Assembly (NCBI GenBank): GCA_964016885.1
Contig: OZ024760.1
Span: 31,248,001-31,312,000, forward strand
DNA length: 64,000 nucleotides
Source of the DNA: Eledone cirrhosa
Lineage: Eukaryota
Direction of reading: 5' to 3'
Both the position numbers and the translations under genes were made by a program. Within the stretch, counting starts at the first letter, position 1, and each line of letters opens with the position of its first letter. Of the stretch, positions 24,317 to 64,000 are shown in pieces. The notes under the pieces were generated by a model. That model worked only from the letters and a program-made list of their open reading frames with translations. It was not told the DNA's origin and searched no databases.

Positions 24317-26696
24317 GGGGATTCCTTTCTTTGTTTCTGTGCCGCTCCTTTGTTCTGTCCTACGCCATTTTGTTTCTGTGTGTGTGTTGTGTGCTCAGTC
24401 TGCGCATGCGCCACATCCGGGTGTCTGTGTGTGTTTATGTTCATTTATTTATTTGTTTATTTACATGTTACTGGTTGGTTGTTTGTTCTATGTGTGTGTG
24501 TGTTTTCATTTTGTCCTTAATTGTAAGTTGTGATGTTGCTGTTCCACTCATATTTTCTATTTAATTTTGGTTGTAATTCTTTTATGTTTATTGCCTCTGT
24601 AATTTGTCTAAACATTGCGTCTTTTCTGTGTGTAGATTCTATTTTTATTTCTATGTTCTCTAATTTACCCTTGTGTTCTATTTTAGCATGTTGGTAGAGT
24701 ACAGATGATTCTTTATTATCTTGAAGGTCTCGCCAGTGTTCATTTATCCGTTCCCCTACACTACGAGCTGTCTCACCTATGTGCACTATATTTTTGTCTC
24801 TACATTGTCCTTCAGTACATCTTATGCTATACACTACATTTCTAGTTTTACAGTTAATATGGGGGCTTATTTTACAGGTTATACATTTCTTATCTATACA
24901 TGAGGGTCTTTGAAAAGGGTATGTCTTGCTAATAAGTGTTTTTACGGAGGTACCTGGTCTTTCTACTATCTTAATATTGAGTTTATGTTTATTTAGGGCC
25001 CTTCTAAATTTGTAAGCTAATTCACCTCTAGGGGTTGTATCGATGAACATTACACTCTGGTATTTATTGCTATCATACCATGAGTTTATTCTATTAGCCT
25101 TGTTCCTAGTTCTTTCTATTCTATTCCAAAATTTGCTCCTATACAAGGGGCAGGTCCCATTTATGTCATTATTTACCATTTTTTCCCATTTGGTTCTGGC
25201 TCCTCTATACACTCTGATTTTATCTCTCTGATTGTAGCCAGAGAACTGCATACGGTGGATGGAGTGTTGTATATGTCTCTCTAGTTCTTCAGGGTTGCAC
25301 ATGCGGGACACATTTCTCATCACCCGTACCAAATCCGCAATCAGTAAGTTGATTTTGGTATGGTCCGAAACGGCTGAGTTTCGGTGGATCAGATGTTTGG
25401 AAGTCATGGGTTTGGCATAATGGGAATGGAGGATTTGTTTTTTGTTGTTAATGCAGATAGCAAACTCCATCCACCAGAGCATTAGAGTTACTATAGACTA
25501 CCCAAGTAAACACCCCAACCATCGATTACCTGTACTAGACACAGAGCTCTGGTTAGATACCATTAACAACAAAAAACAAATCCTCCATTCCCATTATGCC
25601 AAACCCATGACTTCCAAACATCTGATCCACCGAAACTCGGCCGTTTCGGACCATACCAAAATCAACATACTGATTGCGGATTTGGTACGAGTGATGAGAA
25701 ATGTGTCCCGCATGTGCAACCCCGAAGAACTAGAGAGACACATACAACACTTCATCCACCGTATGCAGTTCTCTGGCTACAATCAGAGAGATAAAATCAG
25801 TGTATAGAGGAGCCAGAACCAAATGGGAAAAAATGGTAAATAATGACATAAATGGGACCTGCCCCTTGTATAGGAGCAAATTTTGGAATAGAACAGAAAG
25901 AACTAGGAACAAGGCTAATAGAATAAACTCATGGTATGATAGCAATAAATACCAGAGTGTAATGTTCATCGATACAACCTCTAGAGGTGAATTAGCTTAC
26001 AAATTTAGAAGGGCCCTAAATAAACATAAACTCAATATTAAGATAGTAGAAAGACCAGGTACCTCCGTAAAAACACTTATTAGCAAGACATACCCTTTTC
26101 AAAGACCCTCATGTATAGATAAGAAATGTATAACCTGTAAAATAAGCCCCCATATTAACTGTAAAACTAGAAATGTAGTGTATAGCATAAGATGTACTGA
26201 AGGACAATGTAGAGACAAAAAATATAGTGCACATAGGTGAGACAGCTCGTAGTGTAGGGGAACGGATAAATGAACACTGGCGAGACCTTCAAGATAATAA
26301 AGAATCATCTGTACTCTACCAACATGCTAAAATAGAACACAAGGGTAAATTAGAGAACATAGGAATAAAAATAGAATCTACACACAGAAAAGACGCAATG
26401 TTTAGACAAATTACAGAGGCAATAAACATAAAAGAATTACAACCAAAATTAAATAGAAAATATGAGTGGAACAGCAACATCACAACTTACAATTAAGGAC
26501 AAAATGAAAACACACACACACATAGAACAAACAACCAACCAGTAACATGTAAATAAACAAATAAATAAATGAACATAAACACACACAGACACCCGGATGT
26601 GGCGCATGCGCAGACTGAGCACACAACACACACACAGAAACAAAATGGCGTAGGACAGAACAAAGGAGAGGCACAGAAACAAAGACAGGAATCCCC

Positions 26697-27375: not shown

Positions 27376-27561
27376 GGAGCTTCTACAGGATTAGTACTGT
27401 TTCATTCAGATGAAATCTTCAGGAAGCTCTGAAGATTTCATCTGAATGAAACAGTACTAGTCCTGTAGAAGCTCCTTCTATAAAATAAAAAAAATTTTAC
27501 TCTGCCATGTATTGAGTACCTTACTTACTGTGGTTATCCCCGACTCAACCCGGGACCTACG
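27369..27561 (+). mobile_element. PLE-derived fold-back insertion (family B) with about 80-nt tail
   Basis: Arms 27369-27422 and 27429-27482; tail atgtattgagtaccttacttactgtggtta shared with 29021-29090. Confidence 0.75.
27377..27429 (-). ncRNA. Type I hammerhead ribozyme motif (family B, complete)
   Basis: gagcttc-CTGAAGA-t ttca tc tgaa t-GAAA-cag tactaatc ctg-TA-gaagctc; perfect 7-bp stem I. Confidence 0.8.
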
Positions 27562-28792: not shown

Positions 28793-29143
<351 letters not shown>

Positions 29144-31548: not shown

Positions 31549-31741
31549 AACGAAGGAGTTGTGGTAAGAAACCAGATGGACCATAACGCACCAGAGTACT
31601 CAATACTTAGGGTAGTAGATGGGTAATAGGAAAATGTATGACCCCGACAGCAGAGCTCAAGCCGTTTCGACGGCTATTTCTCGACAGAAATAGCCGTCGA
31701 AACGGCTTGAGCTCCGCCAACGGGGTCATACATTTTCCTAT
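31549..31741 (-). mobile_element. Family C fold-back insertion
   Basis: Arms 31626-31681 and 31686-31741, tail on the left. Confidence 0.75.
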
Positions 31742-38562: not shown

Positions 38563-39184
38563 ATATGAAAAAAGTTTGTCCTTCATCAGTGATCTTCCAA
38601 CTATCATAGGCATTTCATCGCTTTAAAGACCATATACCTCCGGTTGGTGCGAGCAACGGCTAAAAAAAGTCGTTGGGACACGTAAATAAAGGGGACGCGA
38701 GGGTAAACAAACAAAATGGTGAAGCAACAGAGAGTGAGGAAGAAGGAGACAAGTCCCAGATTTCTATGAATTTAAGTTCGGTGAAATCGTGAACGAGAGA
38801 ATAAAGACCATCAAACCTGGTTGAAATGTGAGCAAGGAAGGAATTTCACTCCCGTTAGACCTGTGCGAAATTCCTTCCTTGCTCACATTTCAACCAGGTT
38901 TGATGGTCTTTATTCTCTCGTTCACGATTTCATCGAACTTAAATTCATTGAAATCTGGGACTTGTCTCCTTCTTCCTCACTCTCTGTTGCTTCACCATTT
39001 TGTTTGTTTGCCCTCGCATCCCCTTTATTTACGTGTCCCAACGACTTTTTTTAGCCGTTGCTCGCACCAACCGGAGGTATATGGTCTTTAAAGCGATGAA
39101 ATGCCTATGATAGTTGGAAGATCACTGATGAAGGACAAACTTTTTTCATATGTAACCCATTTGCAACTCCACAGCGCCCTTATT

Positions 39185-40215: not shown

Positions 40216-40242
40216 ATATGTGTGTGTGTGCTTGTATATATA

Positions 40243-41107
40243 CAGTGTGCGGACGATATTTGTTCGTAAGATTACTGTCTAGGAAAAAATAACACTAGTT
40301 TTATTTTTTAAGATATATTTATCAAACTTGGGTCAGTTTGTCTTCACAGCTTGTTCTTTCGATCTCATTCGATAAACCCACCATTGGCTTTGATGAAGGT
40401 CTCAAGGCGGCCTTGGAACCGGCTACAAGCCTTCGTCATTGTCCCCCGACTTAGGCCACTAAAGGCACTTGTGATCCTAGCCTTCAGATCGTCTTTCGTA
40501 TTGCAGCTAGATCTGTTGGTGTCTCGTTCCACTGCGCCCCACACAAAGAAGTCGAGGGGGTTGCAGTCAGGTGAAGTATGGTCGACAAAGTTCTCTGACA
40601 GCCAGGCTTGGGTCTTTCGGCTGGTATGGCAGGGCGCTGAGTCTTGCTGCCACACGTACGGCCTACCTGCAGCTAGCTGGTCGATCCAGGGCTTTACTAC
40701 CTCGCTCAGAACGTGGTTGTAGCCATCGGTGTTTAGCTTGAGGCCCTCACGGAAGAAGTGAGGTGGCATGACGTCATCTTGACTGCTGACGACACCTAAG
40801 ACCAATGTTGTCGCTGGAAACTTTGTCTGCATGACTCTGGGCACGTCATTGGATGAGACACCATTCTCCTGCTGAGGCTGAGAAAGTCTGAAATTTCCTT
40901 ATTTGTCCTCCCGGCACGGATTCCAAGAAGAACTCCGTGTCTCTTCCACAAATTTAGAGGTTCAAAATTATTCATAATCAATTATTCTGAAAATAAATAA
41001 TGGAAATATAGTCACTGTTTTTATGAAGACAAGAGTGACAACGGAAGTAAAAAAATTTGCATAAAATTAGCAGTTGACAATTGCGAACAAATATCGTCCT
41101 CACCCTG
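40243..41107 (-). mobile_element. Internally deleted Tc1/mariner (maT-like) transposon
   Basis: TA-flanked TIRs cagtgtgcggacgatatttgttcg / cgaacaaatatcgtcctcaccctg; WQQDSAPCH..SPDCNPLDFFVWG. Confidence 0.9.
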
Positions 41108-41269
41108 TATGTATATACTCAGACCTGGAGAGGGATGGGCTCTGCCAGGTTTTAAATGTCCAAGAAACGGCGTATGTCACGTCTCAGGCGTCACAGGACC
41201 ATATATATATAGTAGTACACTATATATATATATAGTAGTACAGTAGTACACTGTATATATATATATATA

Positions 41270-41820
41270 TGTAGCGAGATATGTCCACGCCTTGAACCTT
41301 GGGTGACACCTAAAGGTCAAATTCTAGGTCACCACCCTTTTGGTGTGAACAGGTTGATGCGTTGGCTATCCCCTCAGGGTGGGTGGGAGACAGGAAGCGA
41401 CAGGTATATAAAGCCTGTAGTGACCTACATTCCGCGGGCTCACATACATTCTCCATGTGTTATTTGGCTCAGCCCAGCCAATGACTGCCAGTGGAGGAGA
41501 ATGTATCTCTACGTGCCCTGAGAGAAAAATTCCCGCGTTGATTTGAAAAATCTCTCTCTTGCATACTGACCGCGAAAAGGTAAACAACTAACTTTCTTTC
41601 GTCGTGAAATCACTAGCCAATATGTAACACAAAAACTTAACCACGGCCTGGCAACAGTTCAGCCAGTGGACCGTGCCTTCTGAAATTCTTAATTCGTTTG
41701 TTTTATTACTCTTGGCATGCCAGCTCTACTCAGCTCAACCTTGTTAATAAATAATGTAAAACAAACCAAAGACGTTGTCGATGTTCTTACCATATCTTAC
41801 TACCAAACTAATTACTTGTG
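41270..41820 (+). mobile_element. Possible LTR
   Basis: Starts TGTAGC after (TA)n; TATA box gtatataaag at 41404; AATAAA at 41746; tgg near 41819; no second LTR seen. Confidence 0.35.
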
Positions 41821-42536
41821 GTGCAACTAGAGTCTTGTGATGCTTTTACCGTAGCAATGCCTTTAAATGTGATATGGAAGGATTCCTTCCTATCACAGTA
41901 GCAACAGAACCTGAGACTTACAGCCTAACCTCAATTCTTCATGGTGATACATCTACTCTTAAAACCATCCTGTTAAAACTGGTGACTTTTGACGCAGGAG
42001 TATTTAGGCATGAAATGCTCCTTCACAATATATATATATACATCAATTCTGTTAAAAGCCTTTATCATTCCACGTTTACACAGAGACATCGGAGCACCCC
42101 ACTACAGAACAAGCTATGTGAAAGATTCACCACTATCAACAGACCCCAGTGGTCTACAGAAAGACAGATAGATCGGAGCTCTACGATACATAACAAGCTA
42201 TGTAAAGATTCACCGCTATCAACAGACCCTAGAGGTCTACAGAGATACAGAGAGATCGGAGCCCTACTACTACAGACCCGCTATGTGAAAGATATTCCGC
42301 TATCTACAAGCCACAGTGGTCTACAATCAATTACAGACCATTACTATCCCTCACTCACTATGGTCTCAGACTCACGATGAAAACTACTATGTCGACTGCA
42401 ACAAACTTTAACCACCAACAAACTTTATCTCGTCGCTCGCTGTTTTCATATCAACAACAAAAACATTGTCAACCTTTGCAACTCTTGGTAACTGTTTTAT
42501 TGTACTTTTTGATTGAAGTGAAGTAAATCATTATAT

Positions 42537-43629
42537 ACCAGATAGAAAAATGCGTACAGCAAAAAAAAGTAATATTGTTGGAATATAAACCTTTAAAAAT
42601 ACAGGACAAGAAACTAAAATAAAACTTTAAAAGAATAGGACAAGAAACTAAGATAAAACTTTAAAAGAATAGGACAAGAAACTAAGATAAAACTTTAAAG
42701 AATTGGACAAGAAATAAAAAATTTTACAATAATATTAGTGGCAAAATTTTTATTGGTAAAAAATCGAGTTCCACATTCATAGGCTCTGGGTTCCACATTC
42801 AGAGGTCGTCGTCAGACCGGGGGGATCATTTGATCCTGGTTTGAACACCAATTGGGCCATAACCATACCCCTATTTCATCATTCGGCGACATGCCTCATG
42901 TGTCATGCATAATGGGAATGGACCCATGGGCCCATGAGCACAGATCTTGAGCAGCAGCGGACGGTCTTGTCGTCCCGCTCATCCTTGATCTTGACCAACC
43001 CGTCCATCTTCTCCTTGCATCTTGTCCTTGAGTTCAAGTCCGGCAGTCCAGATGAATGCGTGCCACATCTTTCTGGTACAGGAAGGGGGAGCAGGAGGAC
43101 TGGAGGGATGACGGGACAGAGGGAGGGAGGACCGGTGGTTGAGGGAGATGCCGTAGTCGGTGGTCAGAGTCGACATCTTGTCCCGGTCGTTTTCTCCATC
43201 TTCGTCTGGTGTTGCGGGACCAGAAGTGCATTCTTGGAGGAGATCTGCAGCTGCATCGGCCAAGTCTTCTTGCAATGGTCATTCTGACGGAGCAGAACTG
43301 CTCAGCCAACCAACCCCAACCAGAACCAACCGCTCAGGGGCAACGCACAATGAGAGCATGACAATTATTATGCACTAATCAAGAAGATACTGGGGCATAG
43401 CACAGGAAACGAATAAAAAAATTTTGCCACTAATATTATTGTAAAATTTTTTATTTCTTGTCCAATTCTTTAAAGTTTTATCTTAGTTTCTTGTCCTATT
43501 CTTTTAAAGTTTTATCTTAGTTTCTTGTCCTATTCTTTTAAAGTTTTATTTTAGTTTCTTGTCCTGTATTTTTAAAGGTTTATATTCCAACAATATTACT
43601 TTTTTGCTGTACGCATTTTTCTATCTGGT
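42537..43629. repeat. About 216-bp inverted repeats (42537-42754 and 43412-43629) enclosing a GC-rich 650-bp segment
   Basis: Near-identical reverse complements, each with short ggacaagaaactaagataaaactttaaaagaata subrepeats. Confidence 0.9.
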
Positions 43630-43902
43630 CTACTATTTTTTAAGGCAATGCAATCAACAACTATTTAATAATTAAATGATCATAGGGAATTACTGACAAG
43701 TGATTGACACTTTAAAGTTCTTTTGAGTATAATTGCTATCTAGTTGAGGCAACTGGCTTAATGACAAAGCTAGTAAATCATGAATGCATTTGAGATGATT
43801 AGTGCATAATAGTGAATTGGTGAAACTTGTGCATTTCAATGGTGTTACAACAATAGATGTAAGTTATATAGTAGTAATACTTTATCCTTTTAACTTTTTA
43901 GA

Positions 43903-44262
43903 ATGGACAAAAACCCATGCAAAGAAATGACTTTGACTGTAGTGATTCTCTCCAATTTACTTACAAAGCAAAACGTGGTCAAATACCTTATCATCTCTGA
44001 TAAAATGCCCATTGAATCACTGAAAATCGGATGCATGGAATTCCTCATAAAATGCACCTATGAATCGGAAGCCATCACATATATCAATGGATATAGGGAG
44101 TTGTTCACACTGGAAGACCATCACTTCATTTGTGACTTCATCAGTTATCTCCACGATTATCTCAGACACCCAATGCCATTGATGAGAGGTGATCCAATGT
44201 GTGAGCATGTAACTAATCTTATAGAAGTTGTTATCGACCACCTGGCTTTTAGTGACATTTGA
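43903..44262 (+). CDS. BACK-like (BTB-associated helical) ORF, 119 aa
   Basis: LTKQNVVKYLIISDK..ESLKIGCMEFL resembles the SPOP/Kelch BACK helix pattern; preceded by a 43-nt GT-AG intron (43859-43901). Confidence 0.5.
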   Translation: MDKNPCKEMTLTVVILSNLLTKQNVVKYLIISDKMPIESLKIGCMEFLIKCTYESEAITYINGYRELFTLEDHHFICDFISYLHDYLRHPMPLMRGDPMCEHVTNLIEVVIDHLAFSDI

Positions 44263-44442
44263 CTGATTTGACTGATAATGATGTATTTTTAAAAAGTATG
44301 TGTACATTCTTGTTACTATTTTAAGACAATGCAAGCAACAACTATTTAATAAAATTTAAATTTAAAAATGACCATTGTGCATTACTAGTATGATGACATT
44401 TTATTAAGTCACAAAATTATTCAGTCAGCCATAGAACAAGGA

Positions 44443-45083
44443 TCAGGTGGCAAAAACATTGGCAAAAATTTGTGTCAATTTAAGATTTCCAACATTGTTC
44501 AAATGAATCATATCTGGTTTGAAGTCAGATTTGTCAAATTTTGACCAATTTTCAATGTTGTGAAGATTGGGCAAGTTCAATTTTTGAATCATTTCTTTCA
44601 TGCAGTAATTAAACTTTTCCAAACGAGAATTTCTCTTGCCCAAGTCATTTTTATTTTCAATTACACTTTGTGGACGTGGAATGACACCACTGTAGAAAAT
44701 GGGTGTACAGTGGTGCAGCCTTGCAAAGAGACTCTTCCCTTGTTTTTCCGATTTTGTGTCTCGAATGGGCACTTTGTCCTTAATTTACAAATAAATGATT
44801 AATAAAAAATACTTGGGCAAAAATTATTGTATTACTTTGCACAGCTTTGTAGTGCCAACGGTGCGACGAGGATTCAGATCATTAGAGCCAATACTTTCAC
44901 AAAAGGACAACAGATAACAATGTTGGCGATTAACATTACCTGGCCCTGATGGGCCCCAGGTATACAAAATATCTAAGTATTTTTGTTGGTATGATAAGTA
45001 AATACATTTAAATTAATATTTTTATACCTTCTGGTCATTCGATTTCGCCACATTTCTAATTATGGATTTGTAAAAACTGGCAT
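44443..45083 (-). pseudogene. Three-exon SGNH/GDSL hydrolase, frameshifted
   Basis: Block I-like VFT(N/D)SIIRNV, II IPGA, III IGSND, V PDMIHLNNVG; GT-AG introns 44973-45027 and 44779-44835. Confidence 0.7.
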
Positions 45084-45735
45084 GAATGTGTATTTGATCA
45101 GTCCAATTGCCCGATTTTAGTGAAAAGTTTTGATTCGAAATGGAAATACTCCATTTCCGTGCCATGGAAAAAATGAATAAGCCGATCAAAAAGCCGCGAA
45201 ACATCATTTTTAATTAAGCGAAATTAGTGGATGCAAATCTCAGAAAATATTGTACACTATTCGCACCTATCGCACCATTCGCACCTATCGGTACAAAAAA
45301 TCGCACGACTGTTAATAATACTAGAAGTGCAAACTATCTGTTGAATACCTGGTATATGAAGAGCAACCGATACGATCGGTCTTGAAGAAGAATGAAGAAT
45401 GAAGTGAAATTTTGGTCTGGTTGTTGTCATCGGTGTTTCGCAGAGATGCCGGCATGAACAAAGGTGTCAGTGACACAAAGTTGTCCGCTTGAACAAAGGT
45501 GTCGGTCCGACAAAGGTGTCAGTCAGACAGACAGTCAGACAGTGTCACAGTCGGTGCGACAAAGCGATCGATGCGATTAAAAAAAATTTAACTCACATGT
45601 TTACCTATATTTTCGCAAACTATTGATATATTGGTACAAAAAATAGCTTTGATAATAAACATAAATTTTTAACGAAGTGTTTAAAAAGCATTTTAGCAGT
45701 GAAAAGTGAAGTAATGTTTCACACTGACGCAAGTA

Positions 45736-45863
45736 GGGCCGTTCAGAAATGACGTAGTCAATTAGGAGAAAGGGATTCGGCGATTTGACTACATTTGACT
45801 AACGTAATCACAATCACAAGAGTTCCGCCGAAAAAAATTCGTCATTTCTGGATTACCTCCCCT
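45736..45863. mobile_element. Short PIF/Harbinger-like MITE
   Basis: gggccgttcagaaatgacg ... cgtcatttctggattacctccc. Confidence 0.45.
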
Positions 45864-45899
45864 AGCGTCATGCTTACTACTTACTCACTTGAACACAAG

Positions 45900-46122
45900 A
45901 TTTATTAGCAAACTTTGATTATAAACTTTTTCCCGCTGGACCCAATTTCTAGATTTTTAAGCCAAAAGATGCGTAATGATCTACTGTTCATGCTCATATA
46001 AGTTTTATCTCAGTTAAATAAAGTAGAGCCGCGCTGTACTGTCGTAAACAGACGATTGCCAACGAAAACACGACCACAACAATATTACTAAACGGACTAC
46101 CGTCCGTTTAGGATAAACTAAA
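45900..46122 (-). mobile_element. Helentron/HINE-like terminus
   Basis: Perfect hairpin ctaaacggac-tacc-gtccgtttag (46087-46111) next to a T-rich end on -. Confidence 0.35.
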
Positions 46123-46374
46123 ATCATTTAATCTTATTATTCATGTTATTACATCTAACTATCATGTTAAATCATTCTAACTACTTCTTACTTATACCCT
46201 TTGTTAAACATATATAGTGTACTACTATATATATATATATAGTATATAGTAGTACACTATATATATATACAGTGTACTACTATATATATATAGTGTACTA
46301 CTATATATAGTAGTACACTGTATATATATATAGTGTACTACTATATACTATATATATATATATAGTAGTACACT

Positions 46375-49330
46375 GTTGCCAGCCCATCACCTGATTGCGC
46401 TCTATTCCCCGCACTAGCCGGTACTTAAAAACAATTAAATGTCACCTATGCCTCGCAAGCTACCACAGAAGCTGTCGGCATCACCAAAGCTCAAGCCGAA
46501 AGGCTTCAACACTGGACCTGTAATCGGTGCCACTTCAGCTCTGACGTATTCCGTGAGGATGCCCCACACTTTGATGACCAACTCTCTACCGACGACTTTG
46601 CCACATCCATCCAGGGCTTCTCCAAATCAAAGCTCGGTAACCGGATCCCTAAGGGAGCTCGGAATAGCTTTGCACGTGCCCTCTCTAATTTACTGAAAAA
46701 CGTTTGCTTGTCCAACAATAGGTCTGACTGGCAGAAATTGTTTTTGTTTCCCCTCATCTCTCTTCACGTGCACAATGTGAACTCGGGTTCCCTCACGTCC
46801 TCTCTCAAGCGGCAGCTCCAGCTGTTTGAGTCCACCCCAACCACGTCTCATCTCAGTTCGACACCGAGCTCGGTGTCCACCAACAGACAACCGGTAGACC
46901 TCAAGCGAGCGGTCAATGCCAAATTCAGCGAATTTGACATTAAAGGGGCTGTCTGTCTCCTCTCTTCTCTGTCCTCCCTTGCTCCGTGCAACTCTGATTC
47001 TCTTGAGCGTCTGAACGAGAAGCACCCATCGGCACCCCCAGATGATCAGCTACACTGGCCCGAACCACCAGAATACTTGAGACCGGTTTACACCACCGAT
47101 ATCATCAGAAAGGCGATTTCATCCTTCCCCGCTGGGTCAGGCGCAGGAATTGACGGCCTTCGTCCTAAACACCTCAAGGATGATATCTCCTTATCGGCCG
47201 GTGACGCCGGACTAGAGCTCTTGGAGAGTCTAACTCAGTTTGTGAATCAGTTCTCTTCAGTGAACGTTCTCCCGTCCATCCGCCCACTGTTCTTCGATGC
47301 GAAGCTATTTGGTCTCACCAAACCCAACAGGGACCTGCGCCCCATTGCGGTTGGCTGCACTCTTCGCCGCCTCACTGCAAAGGCGTGTTTGCTGTTGGTC
47401 TCCGACTCACTGGCGGAGGAATTTTCCCCCATCCAGCTGGGGGTGGGTACCAGGTTGGGATGTGAGGCTGCTGTCCACGCTGCCAGAGCATTTGCCAACT
47501 TGCCCTCCTCGTCCCCCAAGGTCATCCTCAAACTTGACCTCAGGAATGCCTTCAACTCCGTCAGCCGCGACATCGTCCTCGGCTCAGTAAGAGCGAGGGT
47601 TCCACAACTCTACCACTTTGCTTGGCAGGCTTATCGGGAGCCCTCCTTTTTCTCTTTCGGTGACCAGATCATCACCTCAGCCTCAGGAGTCCAACAGAGT
47701 GGCCCACTCGGGCCCGCACTGTTTGCACGGGGCATTGATGACGTCACCAAGATGGGGGTTGAGTTGGACCTCAATGTCTGGTACCTCGACGACGCCTGTT
47801 TGGGGGGAACTTCGGATATGGTTCTCGCCACTGCCAACAGGATGGTGGAGGAGCTTGGCCGCCGGGGTCTCCAGATCAATAGCCCCAAATGTGAGCTCTG
47901 GATCCTCAACCACCCAGCTTCTCAACACCAACAGCTGATCGACATGTTCGCAGAGTCCTTCCCTTCCATCGCGGTCCCTCCCCCGTCGGCTTGGTGCTCC
48001 TTAGGAGCCCCAATCACAGACCTGGCCTTCGAGTCAATCTTCCAATTGAAGATGGTTGGCCTTGAGCAGCTGCTGAGGAATATCGAAGTTATCGAACCCC
48101 ATCAAGGTTTCTTCATACTCAGGAACTACCTGTCTATTCCTAAGCTTCTGTATCTGCCCAGGGTCAGCCCTTTCACAGATTTCCGTCTTGCCTCTAACGC
48201 TTCGACGACCTAATCTTCGAGAGACTCGAGTGTCTAGTCAATGTTAGACTCTCTCCAGAGTCCCGCGATCAGGCTGCATTGCCCAAGCGATTTGGGGGTC
48301 TTGGTCTCCGTAAGTGTTTATCCCTCTCTCTCCCCTGCTTCCTTTCCTCTACCCACGCTTGCTCCACCCTGGTGAGCAGCATCCTCTCCTCTCCAACATG
48401 GACTAGTTCCAACAGGGAGTTGGGTGAAGCTCTCCAGCAATGGAGTGAGCTGGGCTTGTCTCTTCCTGAGAAGGTGGGGGACAGTCGATGTCAGAGAGCT
48501 TGGGGCAGCATAAGTTCGAAGGCCACCTTCGACTCTCTTTTCGTCCAGTCAGATCAGTTTGCAAGGTGCCAGCGCCAAATACTCAGGGGACTGGGTCGAA
48601 CCCGTAGCCAACGTTGGTGGCCTACTCAGCCTGGACGAACTTTGTGTCTCCATCGCCCTTAGAGTGGGAGCCGACGTCTGCATGGGTTTAAGGTGCCGAT
48701 GCGGCAAACTCCTCGACTCTGCCGCCCGCTTTGCGCGTCACACGGAGCTAAACCTCATTCTGAAGAGAGCTTTGGCCCAGGCGAATATCCCCTCAGTCTT
48801 GGAACCATCTGGGATGTCCAGAAGTGACGGCAAAAGACCTGACGGTCTTACCCTGTGCCTCTGGTCGAGAGGCAGGTGCCTTGTCTGGGACGTCACTGTT
48901 AGTGACTACTTTGCTCATTCCCACAGCCTGGATGCTGCGGTTAGGACGAGAGCCACAGCTTCTGCAGCCGAGCGGAGTAAGACCCTCAACTACTCCGATC
49001 TGTCGGCCAGCTACATTTTTTAGCCTGTGGCTTTCGAGACGTTTGGGGGAGTCGAGCGGCTGAAATCATTAGAGAGGTTGCCCAGTACTTGCGACGTTGC
49101 TTGTCTTTTGCTCTGGTGTTGGCTCCGTTGTTCACCCCTTCTTTTACATTTTCTTTGTAATGTTATTTATGTATTTATTTAAAACATATTTGTTATGTTA
49201 TTCTACTGTGAATTTATTTATATGCTCTGTTTATTTATTTCTGAAAGAATTGCAAACGATTTGTAATGTTGTTTGTGAAACTACGAAGTATTTATTGTAT
49301 TATATGTGTTTATATTTTCACACTTTCTTA
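46375..49330 (+). mobile_element. CRE-clade non-LTR retrotransposon (RT plus restriction-like endonuclease), frameshifted
   Basis: RPIAVG..RRL.AK..QLGVG..GCEAAVHA..KLDLRNAFNS..GVQQ..WYLDD; CRCG..RH..KRPDG..LVWDVT; AT-rich 3' UTR. Confidence 0.88.
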
Positions 49331-49524
49331 TAATATACGAAAACAACATACATGAAAATTAACTTTCAGAAAAGAATAAAGGACGTTTTGAAAAAAGCAG
49401 CATACTGTTACGAAAAACAATACATTCTACCAACACAACTTTCTTTAACGAACAGATTTTTCGAACACACAAATGAACATCAAAATTATTTAAATATTCA
49501 GCAAGTATGTACGAGATACAAGAT

Positions 49525-49785
49525 TAAACAGAGCATATAAATAAATTTACAGTAGAATAACATAACAAATATGTGTTAAATATATACATAAATAACATTA
49601 TAAATACTTCGGTAACACTATAAAGGATGAGACAATGAAAGATATATTCTTTTAATGTTACAATATTAAAGAAAATGTAAAGGAAGGGATGAACAACGGA
49701 GCCAACACCAGAGCAAAAGACAGCAACGAGGGGACACTGGGCAACCTCTCTAATGATGTTTGAGGCAAGCCAGCACACTTGCTGT
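49525..49785 (-). mobile_element. 5'-truncated CRE 3' end (same family); another at 59085-59420 with tandem duplication
   Basis: Reverse complement of 49066-49230. Confidence 0.8.
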
Positions 49786-49866
49786 AATACACTATATATA
49801 TATAGTAGTACACTATATATATATATATATAGTAGTACACTATATATATATATATATATAGTATTA

Positions 49867-49903
<37 letters not shown>

Positions 49904-49905
<2 letters not shown>

Positions 49906-50744
49906 TTCCTTACTATTAGCGGTGTCAAGAATGAAGTAAATTTATTTTCACTTTCGAACATCGTGAAAATGAAAATAAATTTATTTTCATTTTCGATTGT
50001 TTATCTCATAACAAAAATGTCTGGACGAGTATATGGTCGCACTACGTTAGCTGATGATATTTTGGATGCCAATGACAAATTCAGTCAATCGGTGCGACGG
50101 AATTCTTTTTTTGAACGATGCCATGTGCGACTGGATCACCTTATTGGTATTATATACATGTGGTGCTATGATCACACAAGTTGAGATGATTAGAGAAACG
50201 GAGTCTCCGAACGGACAGTTATAGACTGGTGTAATTTCATTAAAGAAATTTGTGAGCAGTATTTGGAGGAAAATCCTCAAGAACTTGGAGGATTCGATGA
50301 CAATGGTGAGTCCATTATTGTCGAGATAGACGAATCGAAATACTTCCATAGAAAGTATCATCGTGGCCTGTGGAGACAAGGCCACTGGTTCTTCGGCGCT
50401 GTTAAACGCCATTCTGGACGCTGCTGCCTTGTAGAAGTCCCAAATCGAAGCCGTGACACTCTCGTCCCCATCATTCAGCAGTGGATTTTGCCAGGCAGCC
50501 GCATCATCTCCGATTTTCTTTCAACACACACAACATGAAAAACAATCAAGTTATTTTGGGGTTTAATGAAAATAAATAATCGAAATGAAAATAAATTTAC
50601 TTTCATTATCCACGACGTTAAATAAATTTACTTTCATTATCCGCGACGTTTCGTTTAAACACACACACACAAAATGTAAATAAACTATCGAAAATGAAAA
50701 TAAATTTACTTTCATTTTTGATATCGCTAATAGTAAGAAACGCC
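49904..50744 (+). mobile_element. Merlin (IS1595/ISXO2-like) DNA transposon, internally deleted
   Basis: IVEIDESK..RKYHRG..WFFG..VPNRSRDTL..ILPGS.IISD; TIRs cttactattagcg / cgctaatagtaagaaacgcc. Confidence 0.88.
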
Positions 50745-51102
50745 AAAATATATATAGTGGAAGAACACTGGAAGGTAATATCTGTAGTGGTAGAACACTC
50801 AGTCCATGGGACGAGTTAGGTAGAAGTGGTTATACAACAGTTAGTTCACCATACCGAGAACATATCTGTTCCATATAACCATGTCCATTATGAGCTGAGA
50901 ATGCGCTAAGGTGAAACAATTGTTCTCGGTATGGTGAATTAACTGTTGTGTAACCACTTCTCTATATATATATATAGTGTGTGTGTGTATGGTGCCTTAA
51001 CTCCTGATAGAATTGTAGGGACGCTGTAGTGACATACGCCATTTCTTGGTCATTTTAAGCCTGGCAGAGCCCATCCCTCTCCAGGTCTGAGTATATATAT
51101 AT

Positions 51103-52857: not shown

Positions 52858-55257
52858 CACAGGTTCTCAACCCATTTAGGCCAAACGCCCCCTTTTGTCC
52901 CTTGAAATCACGAAACGCCCCCCCCCCCCCCCCCCACCCTATTTTTCCATTTTTCAATATACTACTGATTTTGATATCAGTAGATTACTAAAAAATTGAT
53001 TAACTATATTCAGGCAGCTGAGAGTATAAATACATTCCTTGAAAGAAAATATATAAATTTCAAAAAAAGGAACATAAATGTTCTTTTTATGAATAAGGAC
53101 CAGTTGAATTTGTTATATTCCCACCAGGCGATACCAGCTATTTTGAACATTTATATAAGAGCAACTCTGTCTATCCCAAGAGTGCTCTTATCTGGAAGAA
53201 AGTGGCAATTATATCATTTCAAAGCTTTCCAATTTTCCCTTTAATGAAACAAATGTTGATATCAAACTTGATGTCCCCCTGCTTTGTGAGCTTAGAGACC
53301 ATGGAAGAGGGTTTCATGACCACGCGGGAGGGTATATTTATTAATAAATGGTAAAATATATACAACAAATGAGTAATTGAATTGTAGTAGATGGTTTCCA
53401 GTCCAGTCAGACTGCAACTACAAATAAAAAAATTGTTAGTTTGCTTTGTAACAATAGCATATCCAAGTTTTCGTATAAATCAACTTAATTTAACTTTGAC
53501 TCATTTCAATTGGACCCTTGAGCTTCATGGAGTCTAGCTAACTCTTTGACGTGAGGCTGAATTTTCTTAAGATGTAGCCAGAGATCTCCACGTGTAATTA
53601 CATTGTAGCGGTTGCGAGCCTTACTGTGTAGTCTGGAATCAACACAAAACCTCCTCTCGACTAAGTATGAGCTTGGAAAAGGCAGAGCAAATCTCTTAGT
53701 CTCTGCATGTAGGTGTGGAAATCAACGCTGAATTTCCTCTTGCATCCCAAAAAGGGGTTCACCTATTTTGGGAAATCTAATTTTGATCATGTCATCTGCT
53801 TGAAGTTCAATGAATTCTTCCTGAAATTTAACGTCCAAATCGTCGACGTTAACTATGAAAGCATCTGCTATCCACATTGGGATGTCCATCGGCAAAAGGT
53901 CGACAAACCGTTCTCTCATGTTGTCTTGTAGCGCACGGAGCTGAGTGGTATAAATTTGGAGTTGGTCATCGCTTACAATGTTTTGAACATTGGCGACACT
54001 AGGAAAATTATAGAATTCCCGTCAACAAAGATTCCTTTCGATGACATTCAATTTGGCCAGGAATGTTTTCACAGCATTCCTTGCTTTAAGCAAGGTGATC
54101 CCCTGCAAAGCCAAAATGACGCTATTGCATTTGTCGAAGATGTTGGTGAGGTAGGCGCAGTCTTGCCTCACATCGAGGGTTTTCTTGTACAGTTCTGTGT
54201 TGCGTCCTCGCAGAAATTCAACGATAGAATCGAAGAGTTCAAAGAAGTGAGTAAAGCACTTGCCCTTTGAAAGCCACCTCACTTCAGTATGAAGGAGCAA
54301 CTTGATGAATTCTTCGTCATTATCTTGGCACAGTTGCTGTAAAATTCGTTCATTGAGGGAATCAGTTTGATAAAATTAATGATATCAATGGCCACCTGCA
54401 AGGACTTGTTCATAGGCTTGCTGCATTTCTTCGCAGCCAAGTGTTGTCGATGAATGACACAATGAACAGCAAATACAGGTAGATTTTCTCTCTTCAGAAG
54501 AGTGACGAAGCCCTTATGTTGGCCGGCCATTGCTCCTGCGTTGTCCGTAGCACATGAAACAATGTGTGTTGTATATGGTCCTAGATGTATGTATTACCTG
54601 CCGGTGTGTTGTATGTAGTCCTAGATGTATGTATTACCTGCTTATGTATTGCATGTGGTCCCAGCTGTATGTATTACCTGCTTGTGTGTTGTATGTCGTC
54701 CTAGATGTGTGTATTACCTCCTTATGTGTTGTATATGGTCCTAGATGTATGTATTACCTGATTGTGTTGTATGTGGTCCTAGATGTTTGTATTACCTGCT
54801 TATGTGTTGTATGTGGTCCTAGATGTGTGTGCTACCCGCTTCTGTGTTTTCTTTTTTTTATTTTTATTTGTAATATTATTTATACAATAGGGAATAAAAT
54901 AGATCTACATAGTGTTAACTCGTTACGGTTGAGTCAATAATTTCAGACATGAAATACATTGTTATCGGTGAAGGAAAGATAAGATTCTAACTGGCTGCGC
55001 CCAAAGTGCCCTTTGACCCAGATGACTGAGTTTTTCATTTTTAGGATCTCAATTACCGGTTAATGTCTAGACACGCCTGCACACCTGCGGTCAGACTATA
55101 GTTATGCAGTCTGCAAGCTCATTCAAATGCACTCACACTGGCTGTCTCAAAGAATACAAATATGGCTTATAATACTTACCAAAGTAAAGTGTCTTCCAGC
55201 GCCCCCTAGCCTCAAACGCCCCCTGGGGGTGCATATGCCCCCCATTGAGAACCTTTG
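52858..55257 (-). mobile_element. hAT (Buster/Charlie-type) transposon, degenerate, with internal minisatellite of about 41 bp (54560-54835)
   Basis: 8-bp TSD gtctatac (52850-52857, 55258-55265); TIRs cacaggttctcaa / ttgagaacctttg; VHCVIHRQHL and LLHTEVRWLSKG. Confidence 0.92.
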
Positions 55258-58745: not shown

Positions 58746-59914
58746 TACACACACACAAATACACATATACAAACACACATACACATATACAAACACACAC
58801 ACACATATATATACACACACACACATATATACAAACACAGATACACCCATACACACACATATTTATTTGTATTATCAACTAAACAGAAATTGAAAGTGAA
58901 AACTATATTTCATAGAATTTCGTCAGATTTATTCGCAGTAACATTTTCAACTACGGTTTCTCTATATAAAGAATTTGCCATATAAAACCATTTATAAGTG
59001 AGTTGCTGACATATTAGACGGTCATATCTTCTCGCCGTTCCCTTTTTGGTAAGTATTAAACTTTTATTAACAGTTGTATAAATGACATTACAAATCGTTT
59101 GTCATTCTTTCAGAATGAAAATATAAACAAGGCATATAAATAAATTCACAGTAGAATAACATAACAAATATGTTTTAAATATATACATAAATAACATTAC
59201 AAATGCTTAGACAACATTATAAATGAACCTAATACTTTATTTCATAAATATATCCTTCATAGTTGCACAAACAACATTACAAATCGTTTGCAATTCCTTC
59301 AGAATGAAAATATAAACAGAGCATATAAATAAATTTACAGTAGAATAACATAACAAATATGTTTTAAATATATATTACTCGCGATTCTTTCAGAAAGATA
59401 TATTCTTTTAATGTTACAATATTGTTACTTTTTGATCTACCCTATCTTATATTCTACTTTTACTTTTTACATCTGTAACTTCTCTACCTATTTACCATAC
59501 ATGTATTATTATTGTCGGACGCCATTCTTTGGCGCATAGAGTTACGGCCCTTGCCATTCTGGTTCAAATCCCGTCGAGGTTAACTTTGCCTTTCATCCTT
59601 ACGGGGTCGATAAAATAAAGTACCAGTAATACACTGGTTAATTGCTGGCCTTGTGCCAAAAGTAGAAACAATTATTATTGATGTCATTGTTTTAATTATA
59701 CGCTATTTCTCTATATAAGTCTTGCCTCGAGTGAATTATTTTCATATCTACATGGTCTGATGTGTTGACGATAGGTGAATAATGTATTGGAGATCAAATA
59801 ACGCAACATCAAGCGATTAGCGAACTCTAGACCCACATGATCAACGAAACAATTGTCAGTACTTTAAATAAAGCCCTTATTGTACAGCCAACCATGTTAA
59901 TCTTCATTCTTTAA

Positions 59915-61039: not shown

Positions 61040-64000
61040 AACAATTACACGCAAAGACAAAACTACATTTATGGTATAAATGAAGTATTCTTTTCTAAAG
61101 ACAATAAATATGTAAATACAAATATCATATAGCGATATATCAGATGAAAGAATGGTATTTAACTAATGTATTGGTACGCGATGGGGCCCACCCACAGCCC
61201 CGGCGGACAGAATGGAGAAGGCGTTTCCCCGGGGGACGGCAAGGGAGGCGCGCTCGAAAAGCCACTCCAACTCGCGGGGCTCACACCTGCGGCTAGCCAG
61301 CTCAGTGCCTATGGTGGTGAGTAAGGAGGTAGCCCTGGGGCCGAGGACACCAGAAGTCTCCACTGCCAGGGGAACGACTGCAAACCTGTCGGAGAGCGAC
61401 CAGTATTTGAGGAGTTTGGCCTCCTCAGCCCGACGTGCAGCAGAACCTGGGTCAGTCACAGACTGCACCAGGTTGCGGCTGCAGAAAGTGTCGGTGCAAG
61501 TGGCATCCCAGACGAGGGGTTTGCCACCGCTGAACGGGAAGATGGTCATGCCATCTGGCCTTTTGCCGTCCCCTCGATCCAGCCCCACCGGCTCGAGCTG
61601 GGAAGGGAAGCCTGCAGCGTCCAAGCCATGCTTGATGACCTCGTTGAGGGCAGCATGGCGTGGAATGTGGCTGGCACTGTGGCGACAGGAAAGCGGGTGG
61701 AGGCCGAAAGAGTCCACGGTGGAACCACAGTGACATTGGTGTGGCTGGCAGATCCGGAGGCCGAGCCTCAGGGAAACGCCGATTCGCAGGCTATGGTTGT
61801 CTAGCTGCGTGCCAGTGGAGAAGGAGGGCAGGGCATGGAGCCAGGCACCACTGTGGGGTTTGGAGGCTGCACAAAAATAAGCAAGGCGGTGCTGGTCGAG
61901 CTGGCGCGTGAGCCTGTCTGAAGCCAGGCTGCACCGGATGGCATCCCAAGTGCGTTGTGGGGACTTGACGTCAACAGGGGGAGATGGAGGAGGGACGTCT
62001 ACTGGGCTAAGTCCCAGCCGGTCCCACGTCTCACAGGCGGCTTCACGTTCTCTGAACACAGAGGGTTCTGTTGTGTTTTGAAGAACCCTGCTGCCGAGGA
62101 CACAGCACGAGGTTACTGACAAAAGATACACCAGCAAAACTAGTGAGATCGGGGACCGGAGGCCAAGGCTGCCATACCTGACCGGTAAAGTGGCCTGTTG
62201 CCACCCTATGTTGTCAAACTTGACGTGCATATCCCCTCGGCTGCTGCTCGGATACAAGTATCGAGGTCAGTGAGGAGAGATGTCTGGGTGTAGCATGGAG
62301 CACTGCGGAGTGTATAGAGGTGCTTCGGCATGGCGAAGCAGTTCCTCCGCAGAAAGAGAGCTGGGTGGCCGTCAATCAAGCCCAGTCGGCTCGTGAGAGT
62401 CTGGAGCTGTTGAAGCCTGGACCTGATGGTGGAGCGGATGGCCGGCGGTTGGATCAGTGACCCAAGGATGAGGACATCCTCTTTGGGGGTCACCTGAACC
62501 TGGCGGAGAATGGACCGCACATCCAAGACGGAGGCTGCAAAGCTCGCAGCATCGAGGCTGATGTTCACCACCTCCGACTTGGCCGAGTTGACCTGGAGGC
62601 TGATTCCCGCCAGGGCAGGAATTATCGATTGAAGGTCATGGCAGACCGCCCAACGTAGCATCATCCAGATACCAAACGTTGAGACGGGCCGTGATACTCC
62701 GGGCGATGTGGTCAATACCAAGGGCGAACAGGAGGGGTCCGAAAGGGTCGCCCTGATGGAGCCCAGTAGCCGAGGGTATGACCGTATCAGCAGCTAGGAG
62801 CATGCTCAGGGCTCCATATGACAGGTAGGCCAGCGGGTAATCAGAGGGGGCTCGGTTGAGGCAGGCATCGAGCAGATGATCTCGGCGTAAGGAGTTAAAG
62901 GCATTCCTCATGTCAAGCTTGACAATGAGGTGCCTGGAGTCCCTGGATGCCGGTACCGATGGGCAGCTGCTGAAGTACTGCCTGATTGCATGAGCGTCTC
63001 CCTCACAGCCACCGGACACACTGACACCCAGTTGCACCGGACTAAACTCCTCACCCAGTTCGTCTGTGACGGACTTGCAGATCACCTTGGCAGCCAGCCT
63101 CCGGAAGACATTGCACACAGTAATGGGGCGTATGCCACCCTCTTTCTTCCTGAGACCGGTGAGGCTGGCTGAAAAAAAAAGGGCTTGGGCGTAAGGGTCG
63201 AGGGCACCATGAATGAGCCTATTGGTGAGCGCCACAATTGCACTCAGAAAGTGGCGCCCGGCCTCAGCGGAGAGGGGGGATGTCAACTCCTTGAGGTGGC
63301 CTGGTCGGAGACCATCAACACCTCCGCAGCTGCTAGCTGGGAAGGACCTGATGGCGGACATGATATCTGCATCAGTAGTCACAAGGAGCAAGTGGGGGTA
63401 TGGGTCTGAGATCAGTGGGTGGCTCAGGGTGTTTGAGCTGCAGAGCAGCCAGGACCGCCTCGGTAGGTTGGAGGACAGTGTCCTCTGTGGCAACAACTCT
63501 GACTGCGGCCGAGACATCACCCATGATAAACTTTGCGTTTACCTGGTCACGCAAACGCTTGAGGCTGGCCTCGGGGGTGGAGGATAGGGGGTACCTGAGG
63601 GTGGGGTGTGTGGCGTCCCAGGGCACGTTTGGAATGGGCGCTCGCCCAAATGACGAGACATTGACCTTGACGAAGGCTGCTGTTGACCGGCCGCCCCGGT
63701 CAGCGGCAGAACTGGGGAGGCCGAGGGCGAGTGGGGCGAAATAGAACAGCTGCTCCCAGTCCCTAGCTCGATTGGAGTCCAGGGCGCTCTCAATCGAGGA
63801 AGCAAGGGCATCCCGTGCCACTTTCAGGATCCTGAGTGGGATCTTCCAGAACCGCCTGAGCCGAGCGATATTGACCAGCGAGGCTCGGGCGTCAGGCAAG
63901 CTCGCTGTCACATCTGCTGGTGTGCCAGACGGCCGTGGCTGGGAAGATGTGGGGAAGAGTCAACTCCTGCGCCTCCATGCTGCGAGGGCATTGGAAGCTC
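61040..64000 (-). mobile_element. Second CRE-clade retrotransposon family, frameshifted, runs off the window end
   Basis: GIRPI..FRRLAAK..KLDMRNAFNS..GLHQGDPFGP..WYLDD; CHCG..HPLSC..RH..KRPDG..LVWDAT. Confidence 0.9.

What the first reader, a model, noticed from the sequence alone, without database searches (positions are those of the whole stretch)
42537..46122. Compact-intron multigene cassette: SGNH hydrolase, BACK-like gene and unknown ORF beside a Helentron-like end
Seen: a three-exon SGNH hydrolase with all four catalytic blocks recognisable (45083-44443, introns of 55 and 57 nt) converges on a BACK-like ORF (43903-44262, 43-nt intron). There is also a GC-rich Cys/Trp-containing ORF remnant (about 43300-42790, -), a direct repeat of about 45 bp flanking the BACK gene (43632, 44314), a CpG-rich repeat region at 45260-45575, and a terminal hairpin at 46087. 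These introns are far shorter than the 2-10 kb qtc introns. Inference: cargo of a large rolling-circle transposon or virus-like element with its own small spliced genes. SGNH esterases are known in CR1/L2 ORF1 but are intronless there.
Basis: partly seen in the sequence, partly recalled or inferred. Interest (0 to 1): 0.7.

Follow-up and report, generated by a model that had tools for sequence, protein, structure and literature searches.

The report
Rolling-circle transposon carrying spliced esterase gene
A 3.7-kb stretch that recurs in near-identical full-length and internally shortened copies in three related animals carries a broken, intron-containing gene that likely encoded an esterase, plus two smaller gene remnants; it is likely a rolling-circle transposon moved by another element's enzyme, much like a case already known in fish.

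Summary
Mostly real, and one mobile unit. Contigs from three organisms match the stretch at about 99%, and in one the depth implies tens to hundreds of copies (inferred). Two internal deletions keep both ends; one is seen in all 4 runs laid. The right end is a 13-bp inverted repeat abutting a 10-bp hairpin, the layout of Helitron2/Helentron (HLE2) ends. The SGNH gene has both introns and the S, G, N and H motifs, but this copy is frameshifted near 44887, block I reads YKS rather than GDS, and no library profile recognises it; support is a language-model lead and a home-made profile. The BACK label is only a lead, and its 43-nt intron lies upstream of the ORF. No Rep/helicase, transposase or viral gene was found. 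Best reading: a non-autonomous, HLE2-like composite element with decaying cargo. Membership is unproven, because the left 13-mer is not terminal and the target site is unknown. A spliced SGNH gene carried by Helitrons is already known in fish (texim).

The parts
42400..42536 (.). Left margin of the family; the true left end is not fixed
   Evidence: position 42528 is covered by 10 contigs of X1 and 134 reads of X12, while 42392 has 1 contig and 4 reads; X12 depth is 3.4 in bin 42225-42399 and 124 in bin 42400-42574
42537..42751 (+). Left arm of the long inverted repeat (215 bp), with 3.9 copies of a 34-bp unit at 42585-42714
42568..42580 (+). 13-mer, inverted partner of the hairpin-adjacent 13-mer (candidate left subterminal repeat); it lies 31 bp inside the arm
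42871..43359 (-). GC-rich ORF remnant, 162 codons with 2 internal TGA stops; no homologue found; coding status uncertain
   Evidence: searches negative; codon bias weak
43417..43629 (-). Right arm of the long inverted repeat (213 bp); holds a third copy of the 13-mer at 43588-43600; continuous with 43630-43772 in contigs of organisms B and C
   Evidence: records 11 and 20
43631..43677 (+). Direct repeat, copy 1 (second copy at 44314-44361 lies in the 3' region of the BACK-like ORF and holds an AATAAA)
43796..43811 (+). 16-mer with an inverted twin at 43366-43381; each lies upstream of one of the two divergent ORFs (candidate shared promoter element, inferred)
   Evidence: 0 of 1000 shuffles reach 16
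43859..43901 (+). 43-nt intron-like segment (GTAAGT...TTTTAG) just upstream of the ATG; would be a 5' untranslated intron
43903..44262 (+). 119-aa ORF, BTB/BACK-like by language-model features only
   Evidence: first hit 0.92, BTB in 27% of that cluster; 9 of 10 best family hits share a clan; negative
44314..44361 (+). Direct repeat, copy 2
44443..44778 (-). SGNH-like exon 3 with D-x-x-H block; this copy is 18 nt shorter at 44716 than the X1 contig
44779..44835 (-). Predicted intron 2, 57 nt, phase 0
44836..44972 (-). SGNH-like exon 2 (G and N blocks), frameshifted near 44887 in this copy
   Evidence: (X1 record 5 begins with unaligned letters at 44888; X5 record 13 has 13 gap letters in 44754-45149)
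44973..45027 (-). Predicted intron 1, 55 nt, phase 0
45028..45165 (-). SGNH-like exon 1 with the serine block at 45066, read as YKS; start codon uncertain (45165 in frame, 45083 out of frame)
45260..45575 (.). Short imperfect tandem repeats (9, 17 and 35 bp), CpG-undepleted
45744..45850 (.). 11-bp inverted repeat (45744-45754 / 45840-45850); its right arm begins at the right breakpoint shared by both deletions
45840..46115 (+). Right-end module kept in all size classes; contigs of organisms B and C both stop matching at 46115
   Evidence: joints 43772>45840 and 44625>45839; records 11 and 23
46077..46111 (+). 13-mer (46077-46089) directly followed by a 10-bp-stem hairpin (46088-46111): HLE2-type right terminal structure

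Best explanation
The stretch from about 42.4 kb to 46.1 kb recurs in near-identical full-length and internally deleted copies and is likely a non-autonomous rolling-circle transposon of Helitron2/Helentron (HLE2) type that carries decaying cargo genes. SHOWN: the repetition, two deletion classes that keep both ends, a 13-bp inverted repeat with a hairpin after its right copy, a long internal inverted repeat, broken cargo in this copy, and no transposase inside. INFERRED: a RepHel enzyme from an autonomous HLE2 elsewhere in the genome would recognise the 13-mer and hairpin, displace one strand, circularise it and insert it without a target duplication. The long inverted repeat would be a second, inverted copy of the left-end region, left by self-insertion in opposite orientation as proposed for Fusarium elements. 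The SGNH-like and BACK-like genes would have been captured as DNA, with their introns, or inherited from a larger parent whose RepHel was deleted. The cargo is likely not needed for movement, since classes that lack part or all of it are about as abundant as the full-length class.
For: (4 runs: organisms A, B, C as contigs, A again as raw reads): all 30 bins are covered in X1 and X12; the listed contigs differ from the window by 18 of 1836 (X1), 25 of 2603 (X5) and 16 of 1387 (X6) letters. X1 contig depth is 582 (SGNH 5' half), 1262 (BACK), about 2050 (middle ORF) and 2324 (right end), against 10-33 for 9 of the 12 X1 joint rows shown. The joint 43772>45840 occurs in 4 of 4 runs and 44625>45839 in 2 of 4. 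The depths add up: full-length plus the shorter deletion is 1204 against 1262 seen over BACK; all three classes give 1847 against 2324 at the right end. The 13-mer match between the last 60 bp and the arm is reached by 5 of 5000 shuffles and by none of about 1000 other 60-bp windows. Hairpin: 0 of 200 shuffles. The canonical HLE2 end is a 12-16-nt inverted repeat with a stem-loop after the right copy (PMC11417382, passages). Duplicated 5' termini and self-insertion in opposite orientation are described in PMC5148889 (passages). HLE2 is listed for Octopus sinensis (5 insertions; supplement row). Introns argue against an RNA intermediate (established knowledge, Penelope-like elements excepted). 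SGNH: Atlas first hit 0.95 to an unnamed eukaryotic cluster, and 10 of 10 best family-bearing hits share the GDSL family or clan; a profile built from 27 bacterial GDSL domains scores the spliced reading at 7.1 bits, above 1999 of 2000 shuffles and all 1338 window chunks, with the D-x-x-H block in register.
Against: The left 13-mer is not 2-4 nt from the end as in described HINEs (PMC4067079): it lies 31 bp inside the arm, and family sequence continues at least to 42528. The flanks are A-rich on +, whereas Helentrons insert at TT; they are T-rich only on the minus strand, which would need the 'reverse' layout. No empty site or second locus could be read, because no genome is held. No RepHel is linked: Pfam on six frames of 36-64 kb found only reverse transcriptase and an ISXO2-like domain, and that scan is insensitive, since it missed the mariner-like and hAT-like remnants. 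Depth of summed contigs is not a copy number (tool caveat), and the single-locus baseline is my assumption. X5 shows 3 contigs that leave the arm at 43622 and far higher depth on the arms (165-283) than on the interior (about 2-15), so the arms may also belong to a separate family. Profile, homologue and fold searches for the cargo were all empty. The home-made profile aligns only the C-terminal half, and splicing raises the score only from 6.3 to 7.1 bits.
Confidence: 0.58

Rival explanations
1. Nested pile: a foldback or MITE-type cut-and-paste element (42537-43629, long arms with internal tandem units, Mutator- or Tc1-like) inserted into another non-autonomous element that carries the BACK-like and SGNH-like genes, and the composite then amplified.
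For: Long arms with 34-bp tandem units around a GC-rich foreign piece look like a foldback or Pack-type element (recalled resemblance). A joint that drops the middle piece exists (42761>43420, depth 279). Arm depth exceeds interior depth, and 3 X5 contigs leave the arm at 43622.
Against: No target duplication flanks the arms. The arms share a 13-mer with the hairpin end 2.5 kb away (5 of 5000 shuffles). Tandem units and overlapping contigs inflate arm depth. This reading still leaves the outer element with an HLE2-like right end.
Confidence: 0.2
2. Canonical Helitron (HLE1): starts at a TC near 42428 and ends at CTAA 46118-46121, ten bases after the hairpin; the 13-mer matches are by-products.
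For: Hairpin-to-CTRR spacing of 10 nt fits the canonical rule (PMC4067079; sequence). An A|TC lies inside the interval where depth starts. HLE1 far outnumbers HLE2 in Octopus sinensis (55,718 against 5).
Against: The base after CTAA is A, not T. Contigs of organisms B and C stop matching at 46115, before the CTAA. The stem-loop is 24 nt rather than 16-20. The 13-mer pair is unexplained. TC dinucleotides are common.
Confidence: 0.12
3. Remnant of an intron-retaining retroelement (Penelope-like or Terminon-like, which can carry GDSL esterases) or of an endogenous DNA virus or Polinton.
For: Terminons carry GDSL esterases (PMC6431247, passages). Compact, densely packed genes with 43-57-nt introns. 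A Penelope-like ORF lies elsewhere in the window (24517-26496; label recalled).
Against: Derivatives are internal deletions that keep both ends, not 5' truncations. The ORFs point in both directions. No hammerhead or other RNA family reached significance inside the element. No reverse transcriptase, polymerase, integrase or capsid inside. No relatives in viral contigs or PHROGs.
Confidence: 0.06
4. A host gene cluster multiplied by segmental or tandem duplication (macrosatellite), with no transposition of its own.
For: Dispersal of the copies was not shown directly; only one locus could be read.
Against: Sharp family limits with a terminal structure. The flank 41525-42224 has no X5 contigs although the cassette has them. 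No head-to-tail joint among the 15 joint rows shown (9 more were not shown).
Confidence: 0.04

Closest known systems
texim genes of teleost fish, carried by Helitrons (PMC4021074)
   Same: Multi-copy, intron-containing SGNH hydrolase gene with no reverse transcriptase, tied to a rolling-circle element; truncated and dead copies occur.
   Different: texim has up to 15 exons and lies next to a Helitron coding region; the paper found the association only in fish. Here there are 3 exons with 55-57-nt introns, no RepHel, two further cargo ORFs, and a probable cephalopod host. Homology to texim was not tested.
HINE / DINE-1 non-autonomous Helentrons, including oyster Cg_HINE (PMC4067079, PMC7492417)
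   Same: 11-15-bp subterminal inverted repeat followed by a 3' palindrome, internal tandem repeats, deletion derivatives that keep both ends.
   Different: The left repeat is not 2-4 nt from the end and has no adjacent short inverted partner; it sits in a 213-215-bp inverted duplication. The element is 3.7 kb with spliced cargo, whereas gene capture was rare in the Helentrons surveyed. Flanks are A-rich on the hairpin-last strand.
FoHeli3-5 / 'HLE2-reverse' and proto-Helentron (PMC5148889, PMC11417382)
   Same: Stem-loop outside a 12-16-bp inverted repeat; one repeat may lie far inside the true end; duplicated termini from self-insertion.
   Different: Those elements are fungal or oomycete and autonomous; duplicated termini there are mostly direct and under 200 bp.
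SGNH esterases of CR1/L2 ORF1 and GDSL esterases of Terminons
   Same: Same enzyme class as accessory cargo of a mobile element.
   Different: Those are retroelements. Here there is no reverse transcriptase, and the derivative pattern is that of a DNA element.

Membership tests
HLE2 / Helentron / HINE | Short (11-18 nt) inverted repeat pair near the ends | tested here: met
   13-mer at 42568-42580 and 46077-46089; 5 of 5000 shuffles reach this length
HLE2 / Helentron / HINE | Stem-loop directly after the right repeat, close to the end | tested here: met
   46088-46111, z -4.4; family match stops at 46115 in 2 of 2 listed contigs that reach it
HINE (PMC4067079 definition) | Left repeat 2-4 nt from the 5' terminus, palindromic or paired with a nearby short inverted repeat | tested here: not met
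   31 bp inside the long arm; family sequence extends at least to 42528; no stable local hairpin, z -0.4
HLE2 / Helentron / HINE | Insertion at TT without target-site duplication | tested here: inconclusive
   One locus only; flanks A-rich on +, T-rich on -; left end unfixed
HLE2 / Helentron / HINE | Autonomous RepHel partner with the same ends | not testable with these tools
   No genome held; none seen in 36-64 kb by an insensitive scan
Non-autonomous DNA transposon family | Many near-identical copies and deletion derivatives that keep both ends | tested here: met
   (copy number inferred from depth; dispersal not shown)
Canonical Helitron (HLE1) | 5' TC, 3' CTRR about 11 nt after the hairpin, inserted between A and T | tested here: inconclusive
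   CTAA lies 10 nt after the hairpin but is followed by A, and lies beyond the point where other copies stop matching
SGNH hydrolase | S, G, N, H residues in four ordered blocks | tested here: met
   Motifs in order at 45066, 44963, 44889, 44514, picked by eye; block I context is YKS
SGNH hydrolase | Match to a curated profile or to the fold | tested here: inconclusive
   Pfam, NCBIfam and PHROGs negative on unspliced pieces; model pLDDT 35.6 from an intron-containing read-through, no Foldseek hit; home-made profile beats 1999 of 2000 shuffles; Atlas lead
SGNH hydrolase | Intact reading frame in this copy | tested here: not met
   Exon 2 length is not a multiple of three between the G and N blocks
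texim clade | Groups with Texim proteins in a tree of SGNH domains | not tested
BTB/BACK domain | Profile or fold match | tested here: inconclusive
   Pfam none; single-sequence model pLDDT 39, all helical, no Foldseek hit; Atlas lead only, recognition 2520
Foldback / Pack-MULE / MITE | Long terminal inverted repeats flanked by a target-site duplication | tested here: not met
   Arms present, no duplication outside them; the right arm is internal to the family in organisms B and C
Polinton / endogenous virus / Terminon | Polymerase, integrase, capsid, or reverse transcriptase with hammerhead motifs | tested here: not met

The most novel reading that the evidence does not exclude
The spliced SGNH esterase is a long-standing accessory gene of HLE2 elements across animals rather than a one-off capture in bony fish. 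On this reading an autonomous cephalopod Helentron lineage carries its own compact, spliced gene set (esterase, BTB/BACK-like adaptor, unknown protein) under shared promoter elements, and builds inverted-end composites that delete to a fixed point at 45839/45840. The 13-mer also contains a nine-base word resembling the nick-site consensus of circular Rep-encoding ssDNA viruses (recalled, not from a call; it is not at a loop apex here), which could mark the nicking site.
Probability: 0.2. Interest if true: 0.68.

Novelty: new variant of a known kind. Interest (0 to 1): 0.45.

Why it matters
If right, it extends the pairing of a spliced SGNH esterase with rolling-circle transposons from teleost fish to a probable cephalopod. 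That bears on the open question in the texim paper: does the esterase help the element move, or is it a host gene taken along? The family is young (about 1% from other copies), differs strongly in depth between three organisms, and has defined deletion classes with a shared breakpoint, so the ends needed for movement could be mapped from genome data alone. For the host, this copy is likely a dead insertion between genes.

Tried and rejected
No genome was held, so copies could not be aligned. Word-based homologue searches for SGNH exon 3, the BACK-like ORF and the middle ORF found nothing; all three were near-length searches, so longer or fused forms were not examined. The full HMMER scan with the SGNH read-through gave 1 hit at E 4.5e-4, a tandem-repeat protein that I rejected as spurious. 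PDB sequence searches gave only weak unrelated hits. Single-sequence folds were too poor to use. Viral, genome, phage and plasmid collections gave no relative; L001 is a 9-residue chance match. Pattern scans of metagenome and genome contigs gave 0, 8 and 3 loci; the 8 metagenome loci match over only 21-25 bases, and the 3 genome loci are bacterial and were used only as entry points to fetch GDSL proteins. No RNA holder was listed, which says nothing on expression; splicing is untested. Rfam hits are microRNA models below their gathering scores on the AT-palindromic minisatellite outside the element, plus one snoRNA hit at E 0.81. The idea that the hairpin is a 5' repeat-plus-partner was tested: no partner above chance, 12 matches against 13.8 expected. 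An intron starting at 44939 was rejected because removing it leaves a stop and brings the G and N blocks too close. The deletion joints are not splice junctions (ends GT..TT and AG..AT). Three look-ups of earlier findings returned nothing. Literature: no report of this element or of an SGNH-Helitron link in molluscs turned up in 9 searches. The HELIANO main text and its one held supplement file have 0 hits for GDSL, SGNH, lipase or BTB. Repbase and Dfam were not available and may already hold this family.
Full report
Setting. The window is a repeat-rich animal sequence, probably octopus; that rests on recalled SINE motifs and was not tested by any search. No whole genome is held. Exon-like ORFs of a host gene end near 34614, so the finding is intergenic. 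It lies between a mariner-like remnant (about 40245-41124) and a reverse-transcriptase element starting near 46375.

Observation. The two SGNH introns are real GT-AG segments of 55 and 57 nt, 82-84% AT against 56-64% in the exons. The S, G, N and H motifs are in order, but exon 2 is 137 nt long, so this copy is frameshifted between the G and N blocks. The 119-aa ORF at 43903-44262 is open, and its 43-nt intron lies just upstream of the ATG. The direct repeat (0 of 2000 shuffles) and the hairpin (0 of 200) exceed chance. The CpG richness does not stand out (14 of 202 windows).

One repeated unit. Ten of 14 listed runs hold part of the stretch. I laid 4 of them: contigs of organisms A, B and C, and raw reads of A. 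The listed contigs differ from the window by about 1% in each organism. In A, contig depth is 582 over the 5' half of the SGNH gene, 1262 over the BACK-like ORF, about 2050 over the middle ORF and 2324 over the right end. Nine of the 12 X1 joint rows shown have depth 10-33. If those are single loci, which I assume, A has roughly 20-55 full-length and 70-220 total copies; the tool warns that depth is no copy number. Two deletions keep both ends: 43772 to 45840 (4 of 4 runs) and 44625 to 45839 (2 of 4). A third drops the middle piece (1 of 4). The depths add up: 582 + 622 = 1204 against 1262 over BACK, and 1847 against 2324 at the right end. Depth in B and C is about a hundredfold lower. The flank 41525-42224 has no contigs in B and next to none in C, so it is a different repeat. 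Other copies hold more letters at 44716 (18 nt) and 45372 (11 nt), and a contig of B holds 13 gap letters in 44754-45149, so the window's copy has decayed. That the frameshift near 44887 is private to this copy is an inference from where X1 record 5 starts; whether other copies are in frame was not seen. That X1 record shows no gap across exon 1, so the odd block I is probably family-wide.

Ends. A 13-mer at 46077-46089 runs straight into the hairpin. Its inverted copy is at 42568-42580 and a direct copy at 43588-43600. Five of 5000 shuffles and none of about 1000 other 60-bp windows give such a match. Contigs of B and C both stop matching at 46115. This is the HLE2 layout of a 12-16-nt repeat with a stem-loop after the right copy (PMC11417382, passages). 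Against strict HINE membership, the left 13-mer is not 2-4 nt from the end (PMC4067079, passages and Table S2): family sequence reaches at least 42528 and fades between about 42400 and 42500. Flanks are T-rich only on the minus strand, which would fit the 'reverse' layout. The 13-mer resembles none of the 15 repeats listed in Table S2 (by eye).

Cargo identity. No curated profile, homologue search or fold search recognised any of the three ORFs. For SGNH there are two weak but concordant supports. The Atlas places exon 3 next to unnamed eukaryotic clusters and GDSL clusters. A profile from 27 of 29 bacterial GDSL domains (2 dropped for lacking the block I motif near the start) scores the spliced reading above 1999 of 2000 shuffles and all 1338 window chunks, and aligns the D-x-x-H block and final helix; it does not align the N-terminal blocks. 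BACK rests on the Atlas lead alone. The middle ORF is unidentified and may not be coding.

Mechanism. Most likely (0.58) the unit is moved in trans by the RepHel protein of an autonomous HLE2, through strand displacement and a circular intermediate. The repetition, the derivatives, the end structure and the absence of a transposase are shown; the enzyme, the nick sites and the target are inferred. The long arms would be a second, inverted left end from self-insertion, as modelled for Fusarium elements (PMC5148889, passages). Classes without the esterase are about as deep as the full-length class, so the cargo is likely dispensable for movement. Rivals: a foldback element nested in another element (0.2), a canonical Helitron (0.12), a retroelement or viral remnant (0.06), segmental duplication (0.04).

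Unexplained. Both deletions end at 45839/45840, the first base of the right arm of an 11-bp inverted repeat. A 16-mer lies upstream of both divergent ORFs (0 of 1000 shuffles). The arms show no substitution although the copy is 1% diverged elsewhere.

Comparison and novelty. The closest case is texim: spliced SGNH genes carried by Helitrons in fish, with the association reported only in fish (PMC4021074, parts 1-3 of 5 read). Oyster HINEs share the right-end layout (PMC7492417, passages). HELIANO lists HLE1 and HLE2 for Octopus sinensis (supplement rows); its section on captured domains names no esterase or BTB, and its text and held supplement have no hit for those terms. A 2026 Octopus vulgaris annotation lists 8 recently active Helitron families and does not mention esterases (PMC13282606, part 1 of 3 and passages). 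Terminons carry GDSL esterases (PMC6431247, passages). Nine searches found no report of this element, but repeat libraries were not available. Verdict: it works like a non-autonomous HLE2 with gene cargo and is not filed as a proven member. New variant of a known kind; interest 0.45.

Noticed in passing
window 46375-49100 (+): Decayed non-LTR retroelement with a reverse transcriptase (Pfam RVT_1, E 3e-14) and a C-terminal nuclease-like part (CRE-like, label recalled), lying between two arrays of the same AT-rich palindromic minisatellite (46210-46374 and 49793-49904); a third array is at 41203-41259.
   Followed up: partly
window 61163-64000 (-): Second, related reverse-transcriptase element (RVT_1, E 3e-10), broken by frameshifts.
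   Followed up: no
window 40226-41124: Mariner-like transposase remnant (40365-40898, -; label recalled, no Pfam hit) between 44-bp inverted repeats.
   Followed up: no
window 49890-50756: Merlin/ISXO2-like transposase fragment (PF12762, E 3.5e-7) with inverted repeats at both sides.
   Followed up: no
window 41108-41180 and 51029-51101: Two inverted 73-bp copies, 93% alike, of a very high-depth repeat (about 60,000-84,000 in X1) bracketing 10 kb that includes the finding; probably two separate insertions.
   Followed up: partly
window 41280-42400: Older, more diverged repeat with an 83-bp tandem unit (42080-42325) and a 179-aa ORF (41841-42380) without a Pfam hit; deep in organism A, mostly without contigs in B and C.
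   Followed up: partly
window 49065-49757: Nested inverted repeats (92 bp at 90%, 80 bp at 95%) at the 3' end of the retroelement; part recurs at 59072-59423.
   Followed up: no
window 53506-54593 (-): hAT-like transposase remnant in several frames (label recalled, no Pfam hit).
   Followed up: no
window 24517-26496: Two inverted, partly duplicated copies of a Penelope-like C-terminal ORF (label recalled, no Pfam hit).
   Followed up: no
window 27392-27459, 28890-29020, 31653-31714: Long perfect hairpins with stems of 30, 62 and 27 bp, likely small foldback repeats.
   Followed up: no
window 38582-39091: A segment of about 250 bp and its inverted copy lie back to back (same peptide read on both strands).
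   Followed up: no
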